This document shows positions 25,327 to 35,143 of a stretch of 64,000 nucleotides of DNA, piece after piece. How positions within the stretch are numbered: position 1 is the stretch's first letter; every line of letters begins with the position of its first letter. Location: the NCBI GenBank assembly GCA_963795215.1, contig CAWCGW010000007.1, positions 639,745 through 703,744 of the forward strand, read 5' to 3'. Made by a program: the position numbers and the translations under genes. The notes under the pieces are model-generated. The model was not told the origin of the DNA. It ran no database searches and was given only the letters and a program-made list of their open reading frames with translations. Source of the DNA: an uncultured Actinomycetota bacterium (GTDB taxonomy: Bacteria; Actinomycetota; Actinomycetes; Propionibacteriales; Nocardioidaceae).

Positions 25327-25671
25327 TCAGTCCTGCGAGGCCAGCGACCTCAGCACCTCGGCCTGCGTGACGAGGAACGCCCGCTCGTCCAGCTTCCTGC
25401 GGCGCATCCAGGCGGTGACCTCGGTGTTGCACTTGCTGGCGTTGCAGGACCCGCAGGCGGGTACCACGTTGGCCAGGCAGTAGCGGCCCCCCACGGAGAT
25501 CGGCAGCAGGCAGTCCTTCTGCAGTGGGACGTCCTGCGCGTGGCAGTAGGCGCAGCCGCCCCAGGCCGCCTGCAGGGCGAGCCACTCGGCGGCGGTCAGG
25601 TCGTGCACGACCCTGGCCATCCGGCGCCTGCGGCGACGCGCACGGGTCGCTGCTCGGCTGCGGGAGACCAC
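25327..25671 (-). CDS. HNH-fold Zn-finger protein with Cys at the usual catalytic His position
   Basis: CAYC...QKDCLLPISVGG...NVVPACGSCNASK. Confidence 0.75.
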   Translation of the reverse strand: MVSRSRAATRARRRRRRMARVVHDLTAAEWLALQAAWGGCAYCHAQDVPLQKDCLLPISVGGRYCLANVVPACGSCNASKCNTEVTAWMRRRKLDERAFLVTQAEVLRSLASQD

Positions 25672-25915
25672 GCGCCGAGCGTAGGGCGCCGGCCGCTCGG
25701 GACCCGGGAGCCGCGCGGAGGAGCGGGTCAGGGGCCCCTCGTCCGGCACTCGCCTGGGGTCGTCACCACCCTCCTGACCAGCGGGGGTGGTCGGGTAGGA
25801 CTACTCGCGGGCGACGCTCGCAGCGACTTCGGATCGCGGCGTCACGAGGTGACGCGAAACCACTCCGGCGCCCGTCCCGGGCCACTACCTTGAGGCCCTC
25901 TGAAAGGTGGGCTTC

Positions 25916-27619
25916 ATGAGTGAGATCCGGATCAGCCGCGGTCGGCGGGGGCAGCAGTGGCGCGCGGGCCTGATGCTCGGACCCCTGGTGCTCGCGGCGG
26001 CTGCGTGCGGCACCGTCGACGGCACCGGCTCGGCGACGCCCGGAGCGACGCGCCCCACCGTGGAGCACACCACCGCCTTCCTGGACGAGGGCTGGGGCGA
26101 CGACTCGACCCGAGAGGACGAGCAGGCGTCGGAGGAGACCGGGACCTGGGAGCCCAAGGACGACCTGGGGTCGCTCTACACGTCCCAGAAGTGGTACGGC
26201 GCCCACAAGGCCTGGGCCAAGTCGGACGCCAGGAAGCAGAAGGTCACCGGACGCGGCGTCGACGTGGCGCTCATCGACACCGGCGTGGCCCCCGTGGCCG
26301 GGCTCACCGGAACCAACAAGGTGGTCAACGGACCCGACCTCTCCTTCGAGAGCCAGCACGACGGCACCCGCTACCTCGACGGCTACGGGCACGGCACCCA
26401 CATGGCCGGCGTCATCGCCGGCCGCGACCCCGACGTCGAGAGCGGCGACGAGGACGACGACGAGGTCTTCGTCGGCATGGCTCCGGACGCCCGGATCGTC
26501 AACCTCAAGGTGGGGACCGCAGACGGTGGTGCCGACGTCAGCCAGGTGATCGCGGCGATCGACTGGGCCGTGCAGCACCGGCGCCAGGACGGCCTGAACA
26601 TCCGCGTCATCAACCTGTCCTACGGCACCCACTCGACCCAGCCCTACACCGTCGACCCGCTTGCCTACGCCGTGGAGAACGCGTGGAGCAAGGGGATCGT
26701 GGTCGTGGCTGCCGCCGGCAACGACGGGTCCGGGCAGCAGCTCACCATGCCCGCGGCGGACCCGCACGTCCTGGCCGTCGGCGCCGTCGACCACCTCGGC
26801 ACCTCCTCGCGGAAGGACGACGTCACCGGCGACTTCACCAACTCCGGCACCTCGGAGCGCCGCCCCGACCTGCTGGCGCCCGGGAAGTCGGTGGTCTCGC
26901 TGCGGACGCCCGGCTCCTACTCCGACCGCGCCCATCCCGAGGGCCGGGTGACGGGCGACGACGCCGGTCGGTTCTTCCGTGGCAGCGGGACCTCGCAGGC
27001 GACCGCGATGGTCAGCGGCGCGGCGGCCCTGCTGCTGCAGCAGCGTCCCGAGCTCACCCCCGACCAGGTCAAGTACCTGCTCACCTCGACGGCCGAGCCG
27101 CTCAAGACCGGAGGCTTTGCGCAGGGTGCCGGCGTGCTCGACGTCAATGACATGCTCAAGGAGGACACGCCGTCCGCGGCCGTCGCCGCGCAGCCCTGGG
27201 CCCGTTCGACGGGCACCGGGAGCCTCGAGGCGTCGCGAGGGGACAGCCACGTCGTGGACCCCCTGGACGGGACCGCGTTGACCGGCGAGGTCGATGCGAT
27301 GGGCGCGCCGTGGGTCGCCCGGTCCTGGCGGGACCTGACGGCGACCGACCAAGCCTGGAGCGGAGGCGCCTGGAACGGCCGCACCTGGACCGGCGCCGGC
27401 TGGAGCGGTGGCTCGTGGACCGCCCGGTCCTGGCGGGAGGCCACGTGGAGCGGAGCCTCGTGGACCGGTGGTGACTGGTCCGCGCGCAGCTGGCGCGGCG
27501 ACCAGTGGACCGCGAACGGGTGGTCGAGCATCAACCTCTCCGGACGCAGCTGGTCGCAGGACGCGTGGAGCTCGCGGTCCTGGCGCGACTACTGGGGCAC
27601 GGCCAGCTCCGTCTGGTGA
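25916..27619 (+). CDS. Secreted/lipoprotein S8 (subtilisin-like) serine peptidase with C-terminal Trp pentapeptide repeats
   Basis: Lipobox LAAAAC; catalytic VALIDTG (D), GHGTHMAG (H), AAAGNDG (N), GSGTSQAT (S); W-x4 repeat tail. Confidence 0.92.
   Translation: MSEIRISRGRRGQQWRAGLMLGPLVLAAAACGTVDGTGSATPGATRPTVEHTTAFLDEGWGDDSTREDEQASEETGTWEPKDDLGSLYTSQKWYGAHKAWAKSDARKQKVTGRGVDVALIDTGVAPVAGLTGTNKVVNGPDLSFESQHDGTRYLDGYGHGTHMAGVIAGRDPDVESGDEDDDEVFVGMAPDARIVNLKVGTADGGADVSQVIAAIDWAVQHRRQDGLNIRVINLSYGTHSTQPYTVDPLAYAVENAWSKGIVVVAAAGNDGSGQQLTMPAADPHVLAVGAVDHLGTSSRKDDVTGDFTNSGTSERRPDLLAPGKSVVSLRTPGSYSDRAHPEGRVTGDDAGRFFRGSGTSQATAMVSGAAALLLQQRPELTPDQVKYLLTSTAEPLKTGGFAQGAGVLDVNDMLKEDTPSAAVAAQPWARSTGTGSLEASRGDSHVVDPLDGTALTGEVDAMGAPWVARSWRDLTATDQAWSGGAWNGRTWTGAGWSGGSWTARSWREATWSGASWTGGDWSARSWRGDQWTANGWSSINLSGRSWSQDAWSSRSWRDYWGTASSVW
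27356..27580 (+). repeat. 15 contiguous coding pentapeptide repeats, consensus W-[ST]-[GA]-x-x
   Basis: WSGGA WNGRT WTGAG WSGGS WTARS WREAT WSGAS WTGGD WSARS WRGDQ WTANG WSSIN LSGRS WSQDA WSSRS, then WRDYWGTASSVW-stop; TGG recurs every 15 nt. Confidence 0.95.
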
Positions 27620-27772
27620 CCTGCACCCGGCGGATGTGGGCGATCCGGCCACGCGAGCGGACCCGCGGTCCTATGCTCGACGGACGGACCCGGCCGTGCC
27701 CGTCCGAGTCTCTAGAAGGAATGGGAATCGTGGACGTCATGCACCCCTCCCGGTCCTGGACCCACCGGTGAG

Positions 27773-29803
27773 ATGACGATGGACATCGCAGCGGCAGACC
27801 CGACGGAGCAGTCAGGACGCCGTCCGCAGACGCTGATCTGGCTGCTGACGCTGGGCATGGCGGCCCTCGCCGCCCTCATCGCCGCCCCGGGGCTCTCCTC
27901 CGACCCCGAGGCCGCCATGCCGGGCGTGACCTGGTTCGTGCTGCTGCCGGTGTTCGCGCTCGCCGAGGTCGCGGTCATCCACCTGCCCACCGTCCGCAAC
28001 GCCCACGGTCACACGCTCCGCGAGATCCCCGCCGTGCTCGGGCTCACGCTGCTGTCCTCCCAGCAGTACGTGACGTGCTACGTCGTGGGTGCCATCCTGG
28101 CGCTGCTCGTGGCCGCCCGGATGCGTGGCGTCAAGCTCGCGTTCAACGCGGCGATGTTCGCCCTCGAGGCCGCCCTCGGTGCTCTCGTCTACCACGCGAT
28201 CCTGCAGGGGGGCGACCCGCTCTCGCCGGCGGCGTGGGTCGCCGTCCTGGTGGCCGTCCTGGTCACCGACCTCCTCTCGGCCGGTGCCGTGACCCTGGCG
28301 ATCAGCCTCACCGAGGGCGCCTTCGACGGGGAGGTGCTGGACGAGGCCCTCCGCTCGGGCTCGGTCGCGGCCTTCATCAACACCTGTGTCGCCCTGCTCG
28401 TCGCCACCCTGGTCCTCGTGCAGCCGTCCGCGCTCCCACTGCTCGCGGTCCTGGTCGTCCTGCTCGTGTTCGGCTACCGCGCCTACATGGCGCTGGCGCG
28501 AGGGCACGCGCGCACCCACCTGCTCTACCGGTTCGTGGACCGCACGTCCCAGGCCCGGTCGTTGGAGGAGGTCACCCAGGCCGTTCTGAAGGAGGCCACG
28601 GACCTGATGCACGTGGAGCGGGCCTACCTGGTGGAGGCCGTGGGCGACCGCCAGGCCCGGTGCCAGAGCCTGGAGTCGGGCGCGGTCCGCACCGAACTGC
28701 TCACGGTCGGGGAGACGACGCCCTGGTGGTGGGCCGCGTTCGGGTCGGGCATCGTGCGGCACCAGTCCGCGCCTCGCGCGAGCCACGCCGGGGACGCGAC
28801 GCCGGTCGAGGGACCGCCGTTGCTGCTCGACCCCCGTGACGGCCTCGCCGCGTCGCTGCGCGGTGCCGGAGCCGCGACGTACGCCCTCGTCGTGCTGGAC
28901 CGGTCCTTCGAGAAGGAGACCTTCGACGACGAGGACGAGCACGTCTTCGAGGTGCTGGCAGCCCATGCCGGCGTCGCGGTCGAGCGAGCCCGGACGGTGA
29001 GCGACCTGGAGTCCCTCGCCGGGGAGCTGCAGGCCGCTCGGGACGCGGCGCTCGCGGCGTCGGAGGCCAAGTCGATGTTCCTGACGAACTTCGGGCACGA
29101 GGTCAGGACGCCGCTGAGCACGGTGCTCGCTGCCGCGGAGCTCCTGGACGACTCGCCCCTGGACGCCGGTCAGACCGGGCTGCTCTCCAGGATCAGGCGG
29201 TCCGGGGGGCTGCTGCTGGCCCTGGTCAACGACGTCCTGGACTTCTCACGCAACGAGTTCGACAGCCCGGCCGCACGACCGGCGAGCTTCGACCTGCACG
29301 CCGTCGTGACGGGGGCCGTCTCGGCCCACCAGGCGACGGCGCACGACCGGGGGGTCAGCCTCGAGTGCCACTGGGACGACTGCGTCCCGCGCGTCGTCGA
29401 GGGGGACGTGGTCGGCGTGGCCAAGGTCCTGGACCACCTCCTCGACAACGCGGTGAAGTTCACCAAGGACGGCCGCATCGACGTCGCCGTCCGTGCCGCC
29501 CAGGACGACCGAGGGGTGTGCCTCTCCGTCTCCGACACCGGCATCGGCATCCACGAGCGCGACCGCGAGGCCATCTTCGAGGTCTTCACCCAGGTCGACG
29601 GATCCACCACGCGGAGCTATGAGGGCACCGGTCTGGGCCTGGCCATCTGCAAGCAGCGCACCGAGCTCATGGGCGGGACGATCTCCGTCGACGGCGAGCT
29701 CGGGGTCGGCAGCACCTTCACCGTCTGGCTGCCGCTCCGCCCGGCGAGCGAGTCATCGGAGACCGGGGCCTTCACCCCCGTCAGTGGGCGCCGGCGAGGT
29801 TGA
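27773..29803 (+). CDS. Orphan sensor histidine kinase: multi-TM input, GAF-like domain, HisKA and HATPase_c
   Basis: About 6-7 TM segments, GAF-like DEDEHVFEVLAAHAGVAVER, H-box FLTNFGHEVRTPL, LLDNAVKFT, DTGIG, GTGLGL. No receiver domain and no adjacent response regulator. Confidence 0.88.
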   Translation: MTMDIAAADPTEQSGRRPQTLIWLLTLGMAALAALIAAPGLSSDPEAAMPGVTWFVLLPVFALAEVAVIHLPTVRNAHGHTLREIPAVLGLTLLSSQQYVTCYVVGAILALLVAARMRGVKLAFNAAMFALEAALGALVYHAILQGGDPLSPAAWVAVLVAVLVTDLLSAGAVTLAISLTEGAFDGEVLDEALRSGSVAAFINTCVALLVATLVLVQPSALPLLAVLVVLLVFGYRAYMALARGHARTHLLYRFVDRTSQARSLEEVTQAVLKEATDLMHVERAYLVEAVGDRQARCQSLESGAVRTELLTVGETTPWWWAAFGSGIVRHQSAPRASHAGDATPVEGPPLLLDPRDGLAASLRGAGAATYALVVLDRSFEKETFDDEDEHVFEVLAAHAGVAVERARTVSDLESLAGELQAARDAALAASEAKSMFLTNFGHEVRTPLSTVLAAAELLDDSPLDAGQTGLLSRIRRSGGLLLALVNDVLDFSRNEFDSPAARPASFDLHAVVTGAVSAHQATAHDRGVSLECHWDDCVPRVVEGDVVGVAKVLDHLLDNAVKFTKDGRIDVAVRAAQDDRGVCLSVSDTGIGIHERDREAIFEVFTQVDGSTTRSYEGTGLGLAICKQRTELMGGTISVDGELGVGSTFTVWLPLRPASESSETGAFTPVSGRRRG

Positions 29804-30107
29804 GGCCGACGACGCCGAGGACGATCATGCCGAGCGAGGCGGCCTTGAACAGCGACATCTGCTCGCCGAGCCACAGGTAGCCGACGACGGCCACGATGGC
29901 GGTGCCGAGGCCGGACCACACGGCGTACGCCGTCGAGACCGACATGGTGCGGACCACGATCGCGAGCAGCCAGATCGAGGCGGCGTACCCCCCGAGCACG
30001 AACACCGACCACCACAGGTCGGTGAAACCGACGGTGCGGGGGAGCAGGGCGGTGGCGGCCACCTCGATGCCGATGGCGGCCAGGAGCAGCAGGACTGCGG
30101 CGAACAT
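29781..30107 (-). CDS. SMR (EmrE/QacE-like) small multidrug transporter
   Basis: GIEVAAT (membrane Glu), STAYAVWSGLG, four TM. Confidence 0.9.
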   Translation of the reverse strand: MFAAVLLLLAAIGIEVAATALLPRTVGFTDLWWSVFVLGGYAASIWLLAIVVRTMSVSTAYAVWSGLGTAIVAVVGYLWLGEQMSLFKAASLGMIVLGVVGLNLAGAH

Positions 30108-30122
30108 CTCTTCCTCTCACGC

Positions 30123-30165
30123 GTAGCGGTCGCTACATGCGCGCTACTGTAGCACTCGCTACAGT
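30123..30165. promoter_or_regulatory. Two TetR-type palindromic operators between the divergent smr and tetR genes
   Basis: GTAGCG-gt-CGCTAC (30123-30136) and ACTGTAGC-actc-GCTACAGT (30146-30165) share the GTAGC/GCTAC half-site. Confidence 0.7.
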
Positions 30166-30171
30166 GGAGTC

Positions 30172-30720
30172 GTGAGTCGTCGTGAGGAGCTGCTGGAGCA
30201 GGTGACCGACCACGTGCTCGGGCACGGGTTGATCGGGCTGACGCTGCGCCCGCTCGCCGCCGCCATCGGGACCAGCGACCGGATGCTGATCTACCACTTC
30301 GGGAGCCGCGACTCGCTGGTCTCCGACGTCGTCTCGGCGGCGACGGCGCGCGCGATCGCGGAGGTCGAGGCGCTGCCCGCCGCGCCCACCGTGCGGTCGG
30401 CGGTCAACCGGCTCTGGGAGGCCTACTGCCGCGCACCGCTCGGCCCGTTGCTCACGCTCTACTGCCAGGCCGCCGCGACGGGGCTGATCGGGGAGGAGCC
30501 CTACCTCTCGGCCGCCCGGGCGACCAACGAGCTGTGGGCGGCGGCGCTGCGCGACTACCTGCTGCGCTCGGGCGCCCCGGTACGCCGGGTCGGGCGGATC
30601 GTCACCCTGGTGGACTCCGCGCTCTACGGCTTCCACCTCGACCTGACGACCGACCGGCCCGAGGAGCTGGCGCGCGGGGTCGACGACCTCGCCGCCGCCG
30701 CCCAGGCGCTGGCCCGGTAG
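30172..30720 (+). CDS. TetR-family regulator
   Basis: GLTLRPLAAAIGTSDRMLIYHFG HTH. Confidence 0.9.
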   Translation: MSRREELLEQVTDHVLGHGLIGLTLRPLAAAIGTSDRMLIYHFGSRDSLVSDVVSAATARAIAEVEALPAAPTVRSAVNRLWEAYCRAPLGPLLTLYCQAAATGLIGEEPYLSAARATNELWAAALRDYLLRSGAPVRRVGRIVTLVDSALYGFHLDLTTDRPEELARGVDDLAAAAQALAR

Positions 30721-30731
30721 TTGCGGGGTGC

Positions 30732-33236
30732 TCAGGTCCGGGCGCCGGCCAGCCAGTGGTCGAGGACCGTGGAGAGGGCCTCCAGCGAGAGCGGCCGGCT
30801 GACGTGGTCGTCGATCCCGGCCGCGCGCAGCTCCTCGGTCGGGTCGGTGGGGTCCTCGGGGTCCTGGGCGGTCATCGCGACGACCGGCACGTGGGCCTCG
30901 CCGCCGTGGAAACGGCGGATCTCCGCGACGGTGCGGACCTCCTCGCTCAACGGCAGCCGGCAGTCGATCAGCACCACGTCGTACCTCGTGCGCGCCAGCG
31001 CGATCAGCGCCTCGACCTCGTCGCCGGCGGTCGAGGACTGGTGGCCGAGGTACTCGACCATGCCCGCGGTGATCAGCTGGTTGGTCGGGTTGCCGTCGAC
31101 GACCAGCACCCGCGCGGTCCTGGGCTCGACCTCGGCCGTGGCCTCGGCCACGGTGGCCAGCACCTCGCGGAGCTGGCCGGAGTGGACCGGCTTGGTCAGC
31201 GTGGCCGCGAAGCCCGACCGTGAAGCCCTCGCCTGGCCGACCGACGGGTCGGAGGTGAGCAGCACGAGCTGGGGGGCGCCGGAGGTGGACAGCTGGATGC
31301 GCGCGGCGAGGTCGAGACCGGTCATCACCGGCATCATCAGGTCGAGGACGGCGACGTCGTAGTGCCCGTTGGTGGCGAGCAGCTCCAGCGCCGCGATCCC
31401 ACCGTCGACCGTGTCGACCTCGGCGCCCCAGCCGCGCAGCAGGTCGCCGACGACCAGCCGGTTCGTGGCGTTGTCGTCGACCGCGAGGATCCGCAGGCCG
31501 TCGAGCCGGGGGAGGGCCGCGGGGTCCTGCCGGCCCAGGACCTCGAGCCGCAGCTCGACCCAGAACCTGCTGCCGGCGTCCGGGGCCGAGTCGACCCCGA
31601 TGTCGCCGTCCATCAGCCGCACGAGCTGACGTGCGGTCGCCAGCCCGAGGCCGGTGCCGTCGTACTGGCGCGTGTGCGAGGAGTCGCCCTGCGAGAAGGC
31701 GTCGAAGAGCTGGCCCCGGAGCCGCTCGTCGATGCCGATCCCGGTGTCGCGGACCTCCAGCCGGATCGTCGCCCAGCCCTCGGACTCCTCGACCACCCGG
31801 GCACGCAGCGCGACCTCGCCGGCGGAGGTGAACTTCACCGCGTTGCTGGCCAGGTTGAGCAGGATCTGGCGGATCCGCGCACCGTCACCGCGGACCAGGT
31901 CGGGCAGCCGTCCGTCGGTCTGCGTCACGACCTCGAGCCGCTTGGCGTGCGCCGCGGGCGCGACCAGGTCGGCGGTCTCCTCGACGACGTCGACGAGCAC
32001 CACCTCGCCCAGCTCCAGCTCGACCTGGTCACCCTCCACGCGGGCGAAGTCGAGGATGTCGTCGATCAGGTTGAGCAGCATGCCGCCGGCACCGTGGACG
32101 CCCTCGGCGTACTGCCGCTGCCGTTCGTCGAGCGGGGTCTGCATCAGCAGCTGCGAGAGGCCGATGACGCCGTTCATGGGGGTCCGGATCTCGTGGCTGA
32201 TGGTGGCCAGGAACTCCGACTTGGCCCGCGAGGCCTGCAGGGCGGCGTCCCGGGCGGTCGCCAGGTCGACCTGTGCCTGCTCCTGCGCGCGCAGCAGCCG
32301 CGCGGTCCGCACGACCGAGAGCAGCAGCAGCATGCTGGAGCCGAGGATCAGCGGGGCGGCACTGACCGGCCGGTCGAACACCACGTCGTAGAGCAGCAGC
32401 ACCGGGACGGCGAACAGCGGTCCGATCGCGATCGCCAGCCGGGCGACCGTGTGGTCGGCGGCCTCGCTCGCGCGGGACCGGACCGAGCCGCCGCGGTGGA
32501 ACCGGGCCATCAGGATCGCGCCCAGCATCCAGCCGGCGTTCTCCCAGTTCTCGTGGGCGTCGGTGAGGGGCAGGGTCAGGAACCCGAGGTCGGCGACCAG
32601 CCACGCCACGACGCCGACACCGAACCACGGGTCCACCCACTGCCGGGCCAGCCGGTCGGTGGCGATCCGCAGCACGAGCGCCAGCAGCACCGCGTCGGCG
32701 ATCGGGTAGCTCGACCAGACCAGCTTGATGAACGGGGTCAGCGACGGGTCGCCGGCGATCTCCGCGAGCGAGATCGTCCAGAGCACCATCACGCTGACGG
32801 TGACGATCGTGGTCGCGTCGATCAGCGAGTCGACGTCGCGGGCGTGACCGATCCGCGAGCGGTGCAACGAGACGACCAGCGCCGCGATCAGGAAGACGTA
32901 GGCGACCAGCCAGCCGACGTCCGCGAAGGAGGCGTCGGTCGTCTCCGACCCCTGCACCCACAGGTAGTAGGACAGCTCGCCGAAGGCGTTGCTCGCCAGG
33001 CCGGCGGCGACCAGCCGCGCCGGGAGCCGCCGCTCGGGGGCGGAGGTCAGGCTGCCGAGCCAGGCGAAGAAGGCGGACCCTGCCTGCACGCCGACGAACG
33101 ACACGCCGACCCAGGTGTCGGAGGGGCGCACCACGTGGATCAGCACCGCGACGACCCACACGAGCGTCACGGTGGCAGCCCACAGCACCCGGCGGGTCGA
33201 GAACGCCGGTGCCTCCGCGCGGTGCGGGCCGGTCAT
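30732..33236 (-). CDS. Hybrid sensor histidine kinase with multi-TM input and two receiver domains (second degenerate)
   Basis: FLATISHEIRTPMNG, NLASNAVKFT, DTGIG, GTGLGL; REC1 AVDD...LDLMMP...TKP; REC2 VVDG...IDCRLP...SRP. Confidence 0.88.
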   Translation of the reverse strand: MTGPHRAEAPAFSTRRVLWAATVTLVWVVAVLIHVVRPSDTWVGVSFVGVQAGSAFFAWLGSLTSAPERRLPARLVAAGLASNAFGELSYYLWVQGSETTDASFADVGWLVAYVFLIAALVVSLHRSRIGHARDVDSLIDATTIVTVSVMVLWTISLAEIAGDPSLTPFIKLVWSSYPIADAVLLALVLRIATDRLARQWVDPWFGVGVVAWLVADLGFLTLPLTDAHENWENAGWMLGAILMARFHRGGSVRSRASEAADHTVARLAIAIGPLFAVPVLLLYDVVFDRPVSAAPLILGSSMLLLLSVVRTARLLRAQEQAQVDLATARDAALQASRAKSEFLATISHEIRTPMNGVIGLSQLLMQTPLDERQRQYAEGVHGAGGMLLNLIDDILDFARVEGDQVELELGEVVLVDVVEETADLVAPAAHAKRLEVVTQTDGRLPDLVRGDGARIRQILLNLASNAVKFTSAGEVALRARVVEESEGWATIRLEVRDTGIGIDERLRGQLFDAFSQGDSSHTRQYDGTGLGLATARQLVRLMDGDIGVDSAPDAGSRFWVELRLEVLGRQDPAALPRLDGLRILAVDDNATNRLVVGDLLRGWGAEVDTVDGGIAALELLATNGHYDVAVLDLMMPVMTGLDLAARIQLSTSGAPQLVLLTSDPSVGQARASRSGFAATLTKPVHSGQLREVLATVAEATAEVEPRTARVLVVDGNPTNQLITAGMVEYLGHQSSTAGDEVEALIALARTRYDVVLIDCRLPLSEEVRTVAEIRRFHGGEAHVPVVAMTAQDPEDPTDPTEELRAAGIDDHVSRPLSLEALSTVLDHWLAGART

Positions 33237-33350
33237 GGGAGGTCCCCCTGTCTGTCCCGAGTGCACTGATCATGGGGCTCCGGGGGCCTCCGGGGCGCCG
33301 GAACCGAGGTATTTGTTACCCAGCTGTGGTGGCGGGTGCGGGCGCTGGGG

Positions 33351-34418
33351 TCAGTCGACCCGGGACCGCGGCACCGAGAACACCCACCGTCGCCGGGGAT
33401 GCTCGGAGACCGACCAGAGCCGGTCGGTGGAGGGCCAGTAGCTGAGGTCCTCCGGCCCCATCGGTACGGCGAACCGGTGGGCACGGAAGTCGCCCGGCCC
33501 GCCGGCGTACACGGTGCCGGGGACCCAGGGCCCGCGGGAGACGGTGACGTGGAGCTGTCCCCGGGCGCGCACCGCGCCCTGCATCTGGACCACCCCGCGG
33601 TCGTCGAGCTCCACCGGTCGGGCGGCGCCGTCGTCGTCCGCGCGCAGCAGGGCGGAGCCGGGATCGATGTCGAACCGGGCCAGCCTGCGGCTCGCCCCAC
33701 CCCGGCCGTACTCGCCGGCCACCAGCGTCGACGGCTGGTCGGAGCCCGCGCCCCGGTCGAGGGAGAGGAACGAGTAGCGCAGCTTCTCGCACCCGTGCTC
33801 GGTGTGGGCGCGGTAGGAGAAGCGCACCGGGAGCAGCAGGTCGTGCCCGAAGGACTCCACGCCGGGGCCCGCGCGCACGACGTCCTCCAGCCGGCAGGTC
33901 ACGAAGCCCCGCGAGGTCGCGGCGACGTGCACGTGCGGACCGCACCAGACGATCCCCCCGGCATGGACCTCGAGCGGCTCGACCCCCGCTCGGCCCTCGT
34001 CGTCGAGGCCCGGCACCACCAGCAGCACGTGCCGGTAGCGCAGCGTGTCGAGGTCGAGGAAGGTCAGCCGGGAGCCGTGCCCGGCGCCGGCGAGGTGCTT
34101 GGAGTACCAGCTGACGACGAGCAGCCGGCGGCCGAGGACGGTCTCGGTGTCGGAGGCGTCGGCCGAGCTGGAGATGCCCTGCGGCCACCAGCGGGGGTCG
34201 CGCCCGTCGCGTCGCTCCCAGGCGTACGCCGCATCCACGGCCCGGCCGGCCAGCCGACCCGTCCAGGAGCGCCGTGCCTGCCGGTCCAGGCCGTCGAGCA
34301 CGCCGGCCAACCCGGTCCGCCCGCCCAGCAGGTCGGCGAGCGCGTCGATCTCCGCGACGCTCTCCGCGGTGCGTGTGAGGTGGACCCCGTGCGGCCCCCC
34401 GGGCCCGTCTCCCGCCAT
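33351..34418 (-). CDS. Conserved hypothetical protein (possible beta-propeller)
   Basis: MAGDGPGG...WWPQGISSS...VVSWY...HAGGIVW...YSFLSL...QGAV...GPEDLSY...LWSVSE; the coding frame is the 3' part of ORF 33351..35264. Confidence 0.65.
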   Translation of the reverse strand: MAGDGPGGPHGVHLTRTAESVAEIDALADLLGGRTGLAGVLDGLDRQARRSWTGRLAGRAVDAAYAWERRDGRDPRWWPQGISSSADASDTETVLGRRLLVVSWYSKHLAGAGHGSRLTFLDLDTLRYRHVLLVVPGLDDEGRAGVEPLEVHAGGIVWCGPHVHVAATSRGFVTCRLEDVVRAGPGVESFGHDLLLPVRFSYRAHTEHGCEKLRYSFLSLDRGAGSDQPSTLVAGEYGRGGASRRLARFDIDPGSALLRADDDGAARPVELDDRGVVQMQGAVRARGQLHVTVSRGPWVPGTVYAGGPGDFRAHRFAVPMGPEDLSYWPSTDRLWSVSEHPRRRWVFSVPRSRVD

Positions 34419-34460
34419 GCCACCGGACGCTACCCGCTGCGCGCCCGTACCCTCCACGTC

Positions 34461-34853
34461 GTGGAGCGTGTGCTGGTGGTGGGGGCGGCGGTGCTGCGGG
34501 ACGGGAGCGTCCTCGCCGCCCGACGTACGGCCCCGCCGGAGGCGGCGGGGCGCTGGGAGCTCCCGGGCGGCAAGGTCGAGCCCGGCGAGGAGCCGGCCGC
34601 CGCGGTCGTGCGGGAGGTTCGCGAGGAGCTCGGCTGCGAGGTCGCCGTGACCGGGTGGCTCGACGGGGAGGTCGCGATCGGGGACCGGCACCGGCTGCGG
34701 GTCGCGGTCGTGCGGCTCGTCGACGGCGAGCCGGAGCCGACCGAGCACGACCGGGTGCGGTGGCTGGGGGCCGCCCAGCTCGGCGAGGTCGACTGGCTCG
34801 AGCCCGACCGCCCCTTCCTCGCCCAGCTGGCGGAGGGGAGGATGGAGCCGTGA
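34461..34853 (+). CDS. NUDIX hydrolase (MutT-like)
   Basis: WELPGGKVEPGE...REVREELG Nudix box. Confidence 0.9.
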   Translation: MERVLVVGAAVLRDGSVLAARRTAPPEAAGRWELPGGKVEPGEEPAAAVVREVREELGCEVAVTGWLDGEVAIGDRHRLRVAVVRLVDGEPEPTEHDRVRWLGAAQLGEVDWLEPDRPFLAQLAEGRMEP

Positions 34854-35143
34854 GAGGCATCTTCTTCGACGAGGACCACGCGTGGGCCGCGGCGGCGCGG
34901 CTGCGGGCCGACGGCTACGACGCGCAGGTCGCGCGGGAGCCCCTGGCCGGCGAGGACGACGACGAGGACCATCCCTGGGCGGTGACCACCGACGCGCCCG
35001 AGATGGCGCTGGACCTGCTGGTCGACCGCTACGACGGCTGGCTCGAGGTCGAGCCGGACCCGGCGCCCCGGCCGCCCCTCGACCTGCCCGCCGCGCCGAA
35101 GCGCCACCACCGTCCCCCGACGTCGGCCGGACCCCCGGTCTGA
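34850..35143 (+). CDS. Small acidic hypothetical protein
   Basis: MRGIFFDEDHA...; GTGA overlap with the NUDIX stop. Confidence 0.65.
   Translation: MRGIFFDEDHAWAAAARLRADGYDAQVAREPLAGEDDDEDHPWAVTTDAPEMALDLLVDRYDGWLEVEPDPAPRPPLDLPAAPKRHHRPPTSAGPPV

What the first reader, a model, noticed from the sequence alone, without database searches (positions are those of the whole stretch)
25916..29803. Lipoprotein subtilase with a Trp-repeat tail paired with an orphan multi-TM GAF kinase: candidate protease-coupled extracellular signalling system
Seen: a surface-anchored S8 protease with an intact D/H/N/S catalytic set and a W-x4 tail is followed 153 bp later, on the same strand, by a kinase. The kinase has about 6-7 TM input helices, a GAF-like domain, an intact H-box and ATPase boxes, and no cognate regulator. 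Knowledge: subtilases autoprocess, and peptide-sensing systems pair a processing protease with a multi-TM kinase (AgrB/AgrC-like logic). From memory and unverified, similar Trp-repeat subtilases occur next to membrane signalling proteins with GGDEF/EAL or HD-GYP outputs, which would mean a conserved input module with exchangeable outputs. Inference: the protease or its released repeat is the ligand or activator of the adjacent TM sensor. I know of no characterised system of this type.
Basis: partly seen in the sequence, partly recalled or inferred. Interest (0 to 1): 0.85.

Follow-up and report, generated by a model that had tools for sequence, protein, structure and literature searches.

The report
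Trp-tailed protease paired with membrane sensor kinase
A secreted subtilisin-type protease ending in tryptophan-every-fifth-residue repeats is encoded next to one particular membrane sensor module here and in almost every genome checked, whatever that sensor signals through, so the two look like one uncharacterised signalling unit whose mechanism has not been tested.

Summary
25916-27619 encodes an exported S8 subtilase with an invariant Asp/His/Ser triad and a 17-unit Trp-x4 tail. After 153 nt, 27773-29803 encodes an orphan kinase: an 8-helix membrane domain, GAF, HisKA (His442) and an ATPase domain.

The pairing is not chance.
- In 80 loci from other genomes, 49 of 55 tail-bearing S8 genes have this membrane domain beside them, against 7 of 20 tail-less ones.
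- In 19 whole genomes, 42 of 46 family S8 genes have it directly downstream.
- Sixteen relatives that lack the sensor also lack the tail-type protease.
- Paralogous pairs co-diverge as units.
- Adjacency survives a change of gene orientation in other Nocardioides.
- Relatives 61-70% identical over the membrane+GAF part carry GGDEF-EAL instead of the kinase.

The membrane domain is related to MASE9 but is not recognised by the Pfam model, and no family covers the tail.

The mechanism is inferred. Most likely the tail docks the protease at the sensor's almost loop-less membrane domain, and the protease acts as its external co-sensor. Released Trp peptides, mere co-expression, and cleavage of the sensor remain rivals. 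The literature I searched does not describe the pair. Earlier agents of this scan met it in other genomes.

The parts
25916..27619 (+). Gene for an exported S8 subtilase with a Trp-pentad tail (alternative GTG start at 25907)
   Evidence: Pfam Peptidase_S8 E 5e-47. More than 7,900 homologues, all listed ones with the tail. AlphaFold pLDDT 85.8; the catalytic core matches subtilisins and Tk-SP.
25916..26008 (+). Signal peptide ending in a lipobox-like LAAAAC (Cys codon at 26006-26008)
   Evidence: Read directly from the sequence. The lipobox occurs in only 7 of 121 homologues; 107 have a plain signal peptide.
26249..27124 (+). S8 catalytic domain with D124 (26276), H165, N272 and S363
   Evidence: The triad is invariant in 116 aligned homologues.
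27311..27616 (+). Tail with Trp at every fifth residue (ARSW[RS]/SG.SW class, 17 in-register Trp, C-terminal Trp)
   Evidence: Conserved unit by unit among orthologues. Confident in the model up to about residue 550. No Pfam, NCBIfam or PDB family.
27620..27772 (+). 153-nt intergenic spacer
   Evidence: No consensus terminator, promoter or Rfam family.
27773..29803 (+). Gene for an orphan membrane GAF histidine kinase
   Evidence: AlphaFold pLDDT 88.5.
27806..28552 (+). MASE9-related membrane input domain (helices 12-43, 52-66, 84-93/96-113, 120-144, 152-181, 186-216, 218-260; KLAFN motif at 28133)
   Evidence: Profile A3, with N125 invariant. It is the only copy in this genome. It lies beside tail-type S8 genes in other genomes. 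The Pfam MASE9 model does not hit it. Loop charges of +4.1 inside and -1.1 outside fit an N-in, C-in topology.
28553..28984 (+). Cytoplasmic GAF domain
   Evidence: GAF_2 E 1.5e-8, 35.4 bits against a cut-off of 28.6.
29066..29740 (+). Kinase core: HisKA (H442 at 29096) and HATPase_c with N, G1, F and G2 boxes
   Evidence: The closest curated kinase cores are of the hybrid type: TorS, BarA, RcsC and LuxQ.

Best explanation
Shown. The two genes are one copy of a widespread two-gene module.
- The first gene encodes an exported, catalytically intact S8 protease that ends in a Trp-every-fifth-residue tail.
- The second encodes a polytopic sensor whose conserved part is a MASE9-related membrane domain plus a cytoplasmic GAF domain.
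- The sensor's enzymatic output is interchangeable: here a HisKA kinase, elsewhere mostly GGDEF-EAL.

Inferred. The sensor's outer loops are only about 4-13 residues long, so it cannot bind a ligand with an ectodomain of its own. I propose that the folded, Arg/Trp-rich tail docks the protease at the membrane interface on the sensor's transmembrane domain. The protease would then be the sensor's extracytoplasmic co-sensor. Substrate engagement, proteolysis or loss of the tail contact would change the helix packing. That change would pass through helix 218-260 and the GAF domain to the long signalling helix (386-460) and set autophosphorylation at His442. The phosphoryl group would go to a regulator or receiver encoded elsewhere. 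This resembles intramembrane-sensing kinases that depend on an accessory protein.
For: Adjacency.
- 49 of 55 tail-bearing S8 loci have the domain, usually 9-210 nt downstream on the same strand. Only 7 of 20 tail-less loci do (Fisher p 8e-6).
- In 19 genomes, 42 of 46 family S8 genes have it directly downstream.
- All 16 sensor-less relatives lack a tail-type S8.
- No third gene is conserved in the neighbourhood.

Linkage that does not depend on operon structure. The genes are co-directional here and in N. houyundeii, but divergent in N. scoriae and N. coralli.

Pairs behave as units. The correlation of S8 and sensor distances (Mantel r) is 0.716. With partners shuffled within genomes the mean is 0.513, and 0 of 2000 shuffles reach the observed value.

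Tail motifs.
- Paralogues in one genome carry different pentads.
- The same pentad is kept across genera: GATWA in 7 genomes and GKSWS-type in 5.
- Both S8 lineages that partner this kinase clade carry ARSWR-type units.

Other points.
- The catalytic residues are invariant.
- The tail is modelled with high confidence and is conserved position by position.
- The outer loops are short and the positive-inside rule holds in 90 homologues.
- The output is swapped on a 61-70% identical input part.
- Galperin and Chou (bioRxiv 10.1101/2021.11.05.467447) proposed that MASE9, whose ligand is unknown, binds it within the membrane.
Against: - There is no direct evidence of contact.
- Tail charge does not complement outer-loop charge (rho -0.16, p 0.12, the same as the inner-loop control).
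- About 30% of close sensor homologues have no S8 beside them (15 of 49).
- Some tail-type S8 genes have no sensor, including this genome's own paralogue.
- Co-divergence and adjacency also follow from co-inheritance alone.
- The 153-nt gap leaves co-transcription open in this window.
Confidence: 0.42

Rival explanations
1. Self-made peptide signal. The subtilase cuts its own tail after each Trp, a good subtilisin P1 residue, into Trp-ending pentapeptides. These partition into the membrane and are the specific ligand of the neighbouring sensor, giving a quorum-type or autocrine signal.
For: - Many tails are near-identical tandem units, for example 13x GDQWS, 17x GSSWR and 23x GAGWR.
- Paralogues within one genome differ in motif, like pherotypes.
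- 70 of 119 homologues end exactly in Trp, against 15% expected (p 3e-27).
- The sensor has almost no external loops, which suits a membrane-partitioning ligand.
- Earlier agents of this scan raised the same idea.
Against: - In this window and its Nocardioides relatives the units differ from one another, and each position is conserved across orthologues, as in a folded domain.
- AlphaFold models the tail with pLDDT 82-97 up to about residue 550.
- The terminal Trp is mostly out of register with the array (9 of 70 in register).
- No evidence of processing is available.
Confidence: 0.2
2. No direct contact. The tail is a generic envelope or membrane retention device. The genes stay together because the sensor's pathway and the protease serve one process, such as surface, adhesion or Tad-pilus remodelling, and must be co-expressed.
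For: - Some tail-type S8 genes lack a sensor, and about 30% of close sensors lack an S8.
- This genome's type-B S8 sits beside a Tad pilus operon. In N. coralli the order is S8, kinase, Tad operon.
- No charge complementarity was found.
- Arg/Trp-rich sequences generally favour membrane interfaces (general knowledge).
Against: - Neither gene is a transcription factor, so adjacency brings no obvious regulatory benefit.
- 42 of 46 pairing across phyla (Actinomycetota, Chloroflexota, Dormibacterota), with no other conserved neighbour, is unusually strict for mere co-expression.
- Lineage-specific pentads conserved across genera imply recognition beyond generic anchoring.
Confidence: 0.2
3. Control by proteolysis or from the inside out. 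Either the S8 cleaves an outer loop of the sensor to switch it, or the sensor's cytoplasmic state controls retention or activity of the protease outside the cell, as in LapD/LapG.
For: - The catalytic triad is invariant, so proteolysis matters.
- Systems in which a protease and a c-di-GMP-linked membrane protein control each other are known (LapD/LapG; general knowledge, and named as the closest system by an earlier agent).
Against: - The outer loops are 4-13 residues long and poorly conserved.
- A conserved input part with swapped enzymatic outputs, including a kinase, points to outside-in signal flow.
- LapG is a cysteine protease, and LapD has a sizeable periplasmic domain.
Confidence: 0.1

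Closest known systems
MASE9 membrane-associated sensor domain (Pfam PF20972; Galperin and Chou, bioRxiv 10.1101/2021.11.05.467447)
   Same: A polytopic input domain with two short helices forming a probable intramembrane hairpin and very short outer loops. It is found in front of GGDEF-EAL, HD-GYP or kinase outputs, and its ligand is unknown. My profile of the S8-paired domain also finds true MASE9 proteins at E 1e-10 to 1e-24.
   Different: The Pfam model hits none of the S8-paired copies examined and nothing in this genome. True MASE9 genes in the same genomes are not next to an S8. The paper's MASE9 passages, the only part I read, mention no protease partner.
Intramembrane-sensing histidine kinases with accessory sensors (BceS-BceAB, LiaS-LiaF; general knowledge)
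   Same: A kinase with minimal external loops that is thought to depend on a co-encoded envelope protein to perceive the stimulus.
   Different: In those systems the accessory protein is a transporter or a membrane protein. Here it is a secreted protease with a Trp-repeat tail. Their kinases have two TM helices and an adjacent regulator. Here there are eight helices, a GAF domain, no adjacent regulator, and outputs that are not limited to kinases.
Mycosins (MycP, T7SS-associated S8 proteases; NCBIfam TIGR03921)
   Same: This is the best curated family match of the S8 (E 3.5e-49). Mycosins are exported actinobacterial subtilases held at a membrane complex through their C-terminus.
   Different: The score of 167.8 is below the 278.75 cut-off. 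The Trp tail replaces the C-terminal TM anchor. No ESX genes lie nearby. Foldseek's top hits are subtilisins and Tk-SP, not MycP.
Pentapeptide-repeat proteins (Qnr, MfpA, Rfr; Pfam PF00805)
   Same: Strict five-residue periodicity. The only PDB sequence hits of the tail are QnrB1 chains, and they are not significant (E 0.087). The model is mostly turns and isolated bridges, which in my reading, untested here, would suit such a beta-helix.
   Different: No Pfam pentapeptide model matches at E up to 10. The periodic residue is Trp rather than Leu or Phe. Known members are cytoplasmic or lumenal DNA mimics or of unknown role, not protease tails.
Agr quorum sensing (AgrB/AgrD/AgrC/AgrA) and LapD/LapG
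   Same: In both, a protease is functionally coupled to a polytopic signalling protein encoded beside it.
   Different: Compared with Agr: no separate precursor gene, no AgrB-type membrane peptidase and no LytTR regulator. Compared with Lap: LapG is a cysteine protease and LapD senses c-di-GMP from the inside.

Membership tests
Subtilase, peptidase family S8 (PF00082) | Profile match above the cut-off, with Asp/His/Ser triad and oxyanion Asn | tested here: met
   161 bits against a cut-off of 21.8. D124, H165 and S363 are invariant, and N272 is kept in at least 90% of 116 homologues. The fold matches subtilisins.
Mycosin (TIGR03921) | Score above the equivalog cut-off, a C-terminal TM anchor, and an ESX/T7SS locus | tested here: not met
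   167.8 bits against 278.75. The C-terminus is the Trp tail. No T7SS genes among the neighbours.
Bacterial lipoprotein | Signal peptide ending in a lipobox Cys | tested here: inconclusive
   LVLAAAAC fits the classical pattern (sequence), but -3 is Ala and only 7 of 121 homologues have any lipobox. Lipidation itself cannot be tested with these tools.
HisKA-type sensor histidine kinase | H box with phospho-acceptor His, and N, G1, F and G2 boxes | tested here: met
   HisKA 55.7 bits and HATPase_c 103.1 bits. H442, DNAVKF, DTGIGI, FEVFTQ and GTGLGL are present.
GAF domain | Profile match above the cut-off | tested here: met
   GAF_2 35.4 bits against 28.6. The alpha/beta fold at 264-385 is modelled with high confidence.
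MASE9 (PF20972) | Match to the Pfam model above 24.3 bits | tested here: not met
   No match in this genome at E up to 0.01. One relative gave 16.3 bits. A relationship at superfamily level is suggested because profile A3 finds true MASE9 proteins.
Pentapeptide-repeat family (PF00805 and relatives) | Profile match; A(D/N)LXX-like pentads with Leu or Phe at the centre | tested here: not met
   No Pfam hit for the tail at E up to 10. QnrB1 at E 0.087 is not significant. The fold could not be inspected because no coordinates were available.
Agr-type peptide quorum sensing | AgrD-like precursor gene, AgrB-type peptidase, and an adjacent LytTR regulator | tested here: not met
   None of these is among the neighbours or in orthologous loci.
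Trp-tailed S8 plus MASE9-like sensor module (unnamed; seen repeatedly in this scan) | A tail-bearing S8 immediately beside a sensor with the A3-type membrane domain and GAF | tested here: met
   A 153-nt gap on the same strand. A3 profile E 3.7e-76. The pattern is shared by 49 of 55 and 42 of 46 loci elsewhere.

The most novel reading that the evidence does not exclude
The Trp-pentad tail is the cognate, lineage-specific ligand of the neighbouring MASE9-like membrane domain. It acts either tethered, as a folded Trp-repeat domain at the membrane interface, or after self-cleavage. This would make the pair a previously unrecognised class of protease-coupled transmembrane signalling unit in Actinomycetota, Chloroflexota and Dormibacterota. 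It would also be the first ligand assigned to a MASE-type domain. The pentad motif would insulate up to seven parallel pairs in one cell.
Probability: 0.35. Interest if true: 0.9.

Novelty: new variant of a known kind. Interest (0 to 1): 0.72.

Why it matters
Membrane-embedded MASE-type input domains head many c-di-GMP enzymes and kinases, and for MASE9 the one source I read reports no known ligand. A protease partner that is almost always present, co-diverges with the sensor and is lost together with it gives a concrete, testable candidate for what one such domain perceives.

The pair would also link extracellular proteolysis to c-di-GMP or phosphorelay signalling in abundant soil phyla. It shows natural output swapping on a fixed input part, which is useful for sensor engineering. 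The Trp-every-fifth-residue tail is an undescribed protein module present in thousands of proteins.

Tried and rejected
- **Apparent S8-sensor fusion in L006 (1449 aa).** Rejected. The tail and the EAL region are out of frame, so these are assembly frameshifts in a MAG.
- **A third conserved gene.** None found. The next-largest cluster of neighbours occurs in 11 of 81 loci.
- **Charge complementarity between tail and outer loops.** Not found (rho -0.16, p 0.12, equal to the inner-loop control).
- **Riboswitch, terminator or promoter around the genes.** Nothing found.
- **Pfam and NCBIfam on the isolated tail and membrane domain.** No family. One relative gave weak MASE9 and DUF7541 hits below the cut-off.
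- **PDB sequence search.** The membrane profile gave nothing. The tail gave only a non-significant QnrB1 hit.
- **Foldseek on the S8 model.** It returned only subtilisin cores. The tail could not be searched alone, and model coordinates are not exposed.
- **The hybrid kinase with two receivers at 30732-33266 as a conserved phosphorelay partner.** Not conserved in orthologous loci.
- **Literature.** Six full-text searches found no description of the pair.
- **Failed call.** One search failed on a term that was too short.


Full report
**What is in the window.**
The region has 72% G+C. Third-position G+C marks two same-strand genes.

The first gene runs from 25907 (GTG) or 25916 (ATG) to 27619 and encodes an S8 subtilase (Pfam E 5e-47).
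- Residues below are numbered from the GTG. D124, H165 and S363 are invariant, and N272 is nearly so, in 116 homologues.
- The N-terminus is a signal peptide ending in LAAAAC, which fits the lipobox pattern. Only 7 of 121 homologues have a lipobox, and 107 have a plain signal peptide. The family is therefore secreted, and lipidation is at most a local trait.
- The last 100 or so residues carry Trp at every fifth position, 17 in register. The DNA behind them has diverged.

After a 153-nt spacer with no consensus terminator, promoter or Rfam match, 27773-29803 encodes a 676-aa kinase.
- It has a hydrophobic N-terminal 260 residues with no Pfam or NCBIfam family.
- It then has GAF (261-404), HisKA with H442, and a complete ATPase domain.
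- The AlphaFold model (pLDDT 88.5) shows helices at 12-43 and 52-66, a beta-hairpin at 68-81, two short helices (84-93 and 96-113), and helices at 120-144, 152-181 and 186-216.
- Helix 218-260 runs into the GAF domain. One long helix (386-460) then carries His442.

**Neighbours.**
Upstream lie a HisKA_3 kinase with its LuxR-type regulator and an HNH endonuclease ORF. Downstream lie an SMR transporter, a TetR regulator and a hybrid kinase with two receiver domains. No unpaired regulator is adjacent, either here or beside the orthologous kinases of N. houyundeii, N. scoriae and N. coralli.

**Is the pairing more than chance?**
The S8 family is very large, with more than 7,900 hits. Sources label members only as 'S8 family serine peptidase' or 'AprX', and every listed full-length member has the tail.

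I fetched 80 loci from other species and built a profile of the kinase's membrane domain.
- Among loci with enough flank, 49 of 55 tail-bearing S8 genes have this domain beside them, mostly 9-210 nt downstream on the same strand.
- Only 7 of 20 tail-less S8 genes do. One of those seven (L006) is a frameshifted tail-type gene, and four more have borderline tails of 5-7 in-register Trp. Fisher p is 8e-6.
- The loci come from Actinomycetota, Chloroflexota (including Limnocylindria) and Dormibacterales.
- No third gene is conserved.

In 19 whole genomes searched with both profiles, 42 of 46 S8 family genes have the domain directly downstream, with up to seven pairs in one genome.

The reverse link is weaker. 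34 of 49 strong matches to the membrane profile have an S8 beside them, but only 8 of 64 weak matches do. The weak matches are the ones that the Pfam MASE9 model recognises. The S8-paired domain is therefore a distinct clade related to MASE9.

Sixteen genomes of the same genus, family or class that lack the domain also lack any tail-type S8.

**Exchangeable outputs.**
Of 36 partner proteins, 31 carry GGDEF, 29 carry EAL and 5 carry HisKA+HATPase. Among proteins 61-70% identical to residues 1-420 of this kinase, most are kinases, but six (P0163, P0170, P0178, P0183, P0195 and P0196) are GGDEF-EAL enzymes. That indicates a recent output swap on a fixed membrane+GAF input.

**Linkage beyond the operon.**
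- N. houyundeii has the S8 followed by the kinase, as here, with a 75-nt gap.
- In N. scoriae and N. coralli the S8 is divergent from the orthologous kinase, about 360-400 bp away.
- Those divergent S8 genes belong to a second lineage, type B, and are 63-79% identical to this genome's second tail-type S8 at G000:C7:742110-743588. That gene is 55% identical to the window's S8 and has no sensor beside it.
- Both lineages carry ARSWR-type units.
- This genome has one sensor of this kind and two such proteases.

**Do the pairs evolve as units?**
Across 90 pairs, distances between S8 catalytic domains and between membrane domains correlate at r = 0.716. After shuffling partners among paralogues within each genome, the mean is 0.513 and the maximum 0.645, and 0 of 2000 shuffles reach the observed value. 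Pairs were therefore duplicated and kept together.

Tails of paralogues in one genome use different pentads.
- G070 has GNTWS, GSSWS, GSTWS, GTTWT, GTNWS, ANSWS and SATWA.
- G110 has RARWS, ANRWS, GKSWA and GATWA.

The same pentad persists across genera: GATWA in seven genomes and GKSWS-type in five. So the positions other than Trp are under lineage-specific constraint.

**Clues to mechanism.**
- Predicted inner loops carry a mean charge of +4.1 and outer loops -1.1 in 90 homologues. This supports an N-in, C-in topology with outer loops of only about 13, 3-5, 9-11 and 4-5 residues. Perception must therefore occur at or within the membrane, as Galperin and Chou argued for MASE9.
- The S8 model is confident through the tail to about residue 550, with pLDDT 82-97 in most blocks. 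The tail is mostly turns with isolated bridges.
- Structure search matches only the subtilisin core.
- The tail's only PDB sequence hits are QnrB1 chains at a non-significant E of 0.087, and no Pfam pentapeptide model matches. A Trp-centred pentapeptide-type solenoid is possible but not shown.
- In the Nocardioides clade the tail is conserved unit by unit, including one unit where Leu replaces Trp. This fits a folded domain better than a string of identical signal peptides.
- 70 of 119 homologues end exactly in Trp (p 3e-27), mostly out of register with the array. I cannot explain this.
- Tail charge and outer-loop charge do not co-vary.

**Best reading and rivals.**
Shown: this is a conserved, co-inherited two-gene module with a fixed input part and a variable output, and this window holds the kinase-output variant.

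Inferred, with confidence about 0.4: the tail docks the active protease on the sensor's membrane domain, so that the protease serves as its external co-sensor, in the manner of intramembrane-sensing kinases that need an accessory protein.

Three rivals remain.
- Self-cleaved Trp peptides act as ligands (0.2).
- The tail is a generic retention device and the genes are simply co-expressed for one surface process, possibly linked to Tad pili (0.2).
- The S8 cleaves the sensor, or the sensor controls the protease from the inside as in Lap (0.1).

**Novelty.**
Six full-text searches and the MASE9 preprint gave no description of the pair or of the tail. Earlier agents of this scan reported the same module in at least nine other genomes and also found no literature. 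My tests were run independently and agree with theirs.

- the kinase variant and its close GGDEF-EAL siblings;
- the orientation flip;
- two S8 lineages for one sensor clade;
- the partner-shuffle test;
- the co-absence test;
- the negative charge test.

**Limits.**
- Many comparison genomes are MAGs.
- I chose the 19 whole genomes because they hold copies of the membrane domain, many of them in several copies.

Noticed in passing
G000:C7:742110-743588 (about 39 kb beyond the window end; locus L081:8099-9838, minus strand): This is a second Trp-tailed S8, 55% identical to the window's, with no sensor beside it. It lies convergent with a Tad/Flp-pilus-like operon. In N. coralli its 79% orthologue sits divergent from the orthologous kinase, which is followed directly by T2SSE, T2SSF x2, TadE and Tad genes (L084). 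This may link the module to pilus or adhesion control.
   Followed up: partly
window 30732-34860 (minus strand): A hybrid histidine kinase with two receiver domains (30732-33266) is preceded on the same strand by a 514-aa ORF (33316-34860) with no Pfam family. The kinase could be a phosphorelay partner of the orphan kinase, but it is not conserved beside the orthologues.
   Followed up: partly
window 25327-25749 (minus strand): A small HNH-endonuclease ORF (weak Pfam HNH_5/HNH hits) lies between the LuxR-type two-component pair and the S8 gene. N. scoriae has the same HisKA_3-LuxR pair upstream of its S8 but no HNH gene.
   Followed up: no
S8 family tails (proteins P0003-P0122): 59% of homologues (70 of 119) end exactly in a C-terminal Trp, usually out of register with the pentad array. 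Another 19 end four residues after the last Trp. This is unexplained.
   Followed up: partly
L012 and L023: In both loci two tail-type S8 reading frames were paired with the same single sensor gene, which lies about 1.7-1.9 kb downstream of the best S8 match. L012 carries GSTWT and GARWA tails; L023 carries GSTWS and GATWS.
   Followed up: no
L006:7944-12290: An apparent 1449-aa S8-sensor fusion in a long-read MAG is an artefact. The tail and the EAL domain read out of frame.
   Followed up: yes
same-genus genomes: Only 2 of 11 genomes of the window's genus carry the sensor and tail-type S8 pair. The module is therefore accessory and patchy within the genus, although it is widespread in the class (205 of 301 genomes have the membrane domain).
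   Followed up: partly
window 29781-30720: A divergent SMR efflux gene (29781-30107, minus) and a TetR regulator (30172-30720, plus) lie directly after the kinase. The SMR gene overlaps the kinase's 3' end by 23 nt.
   Followed up: no
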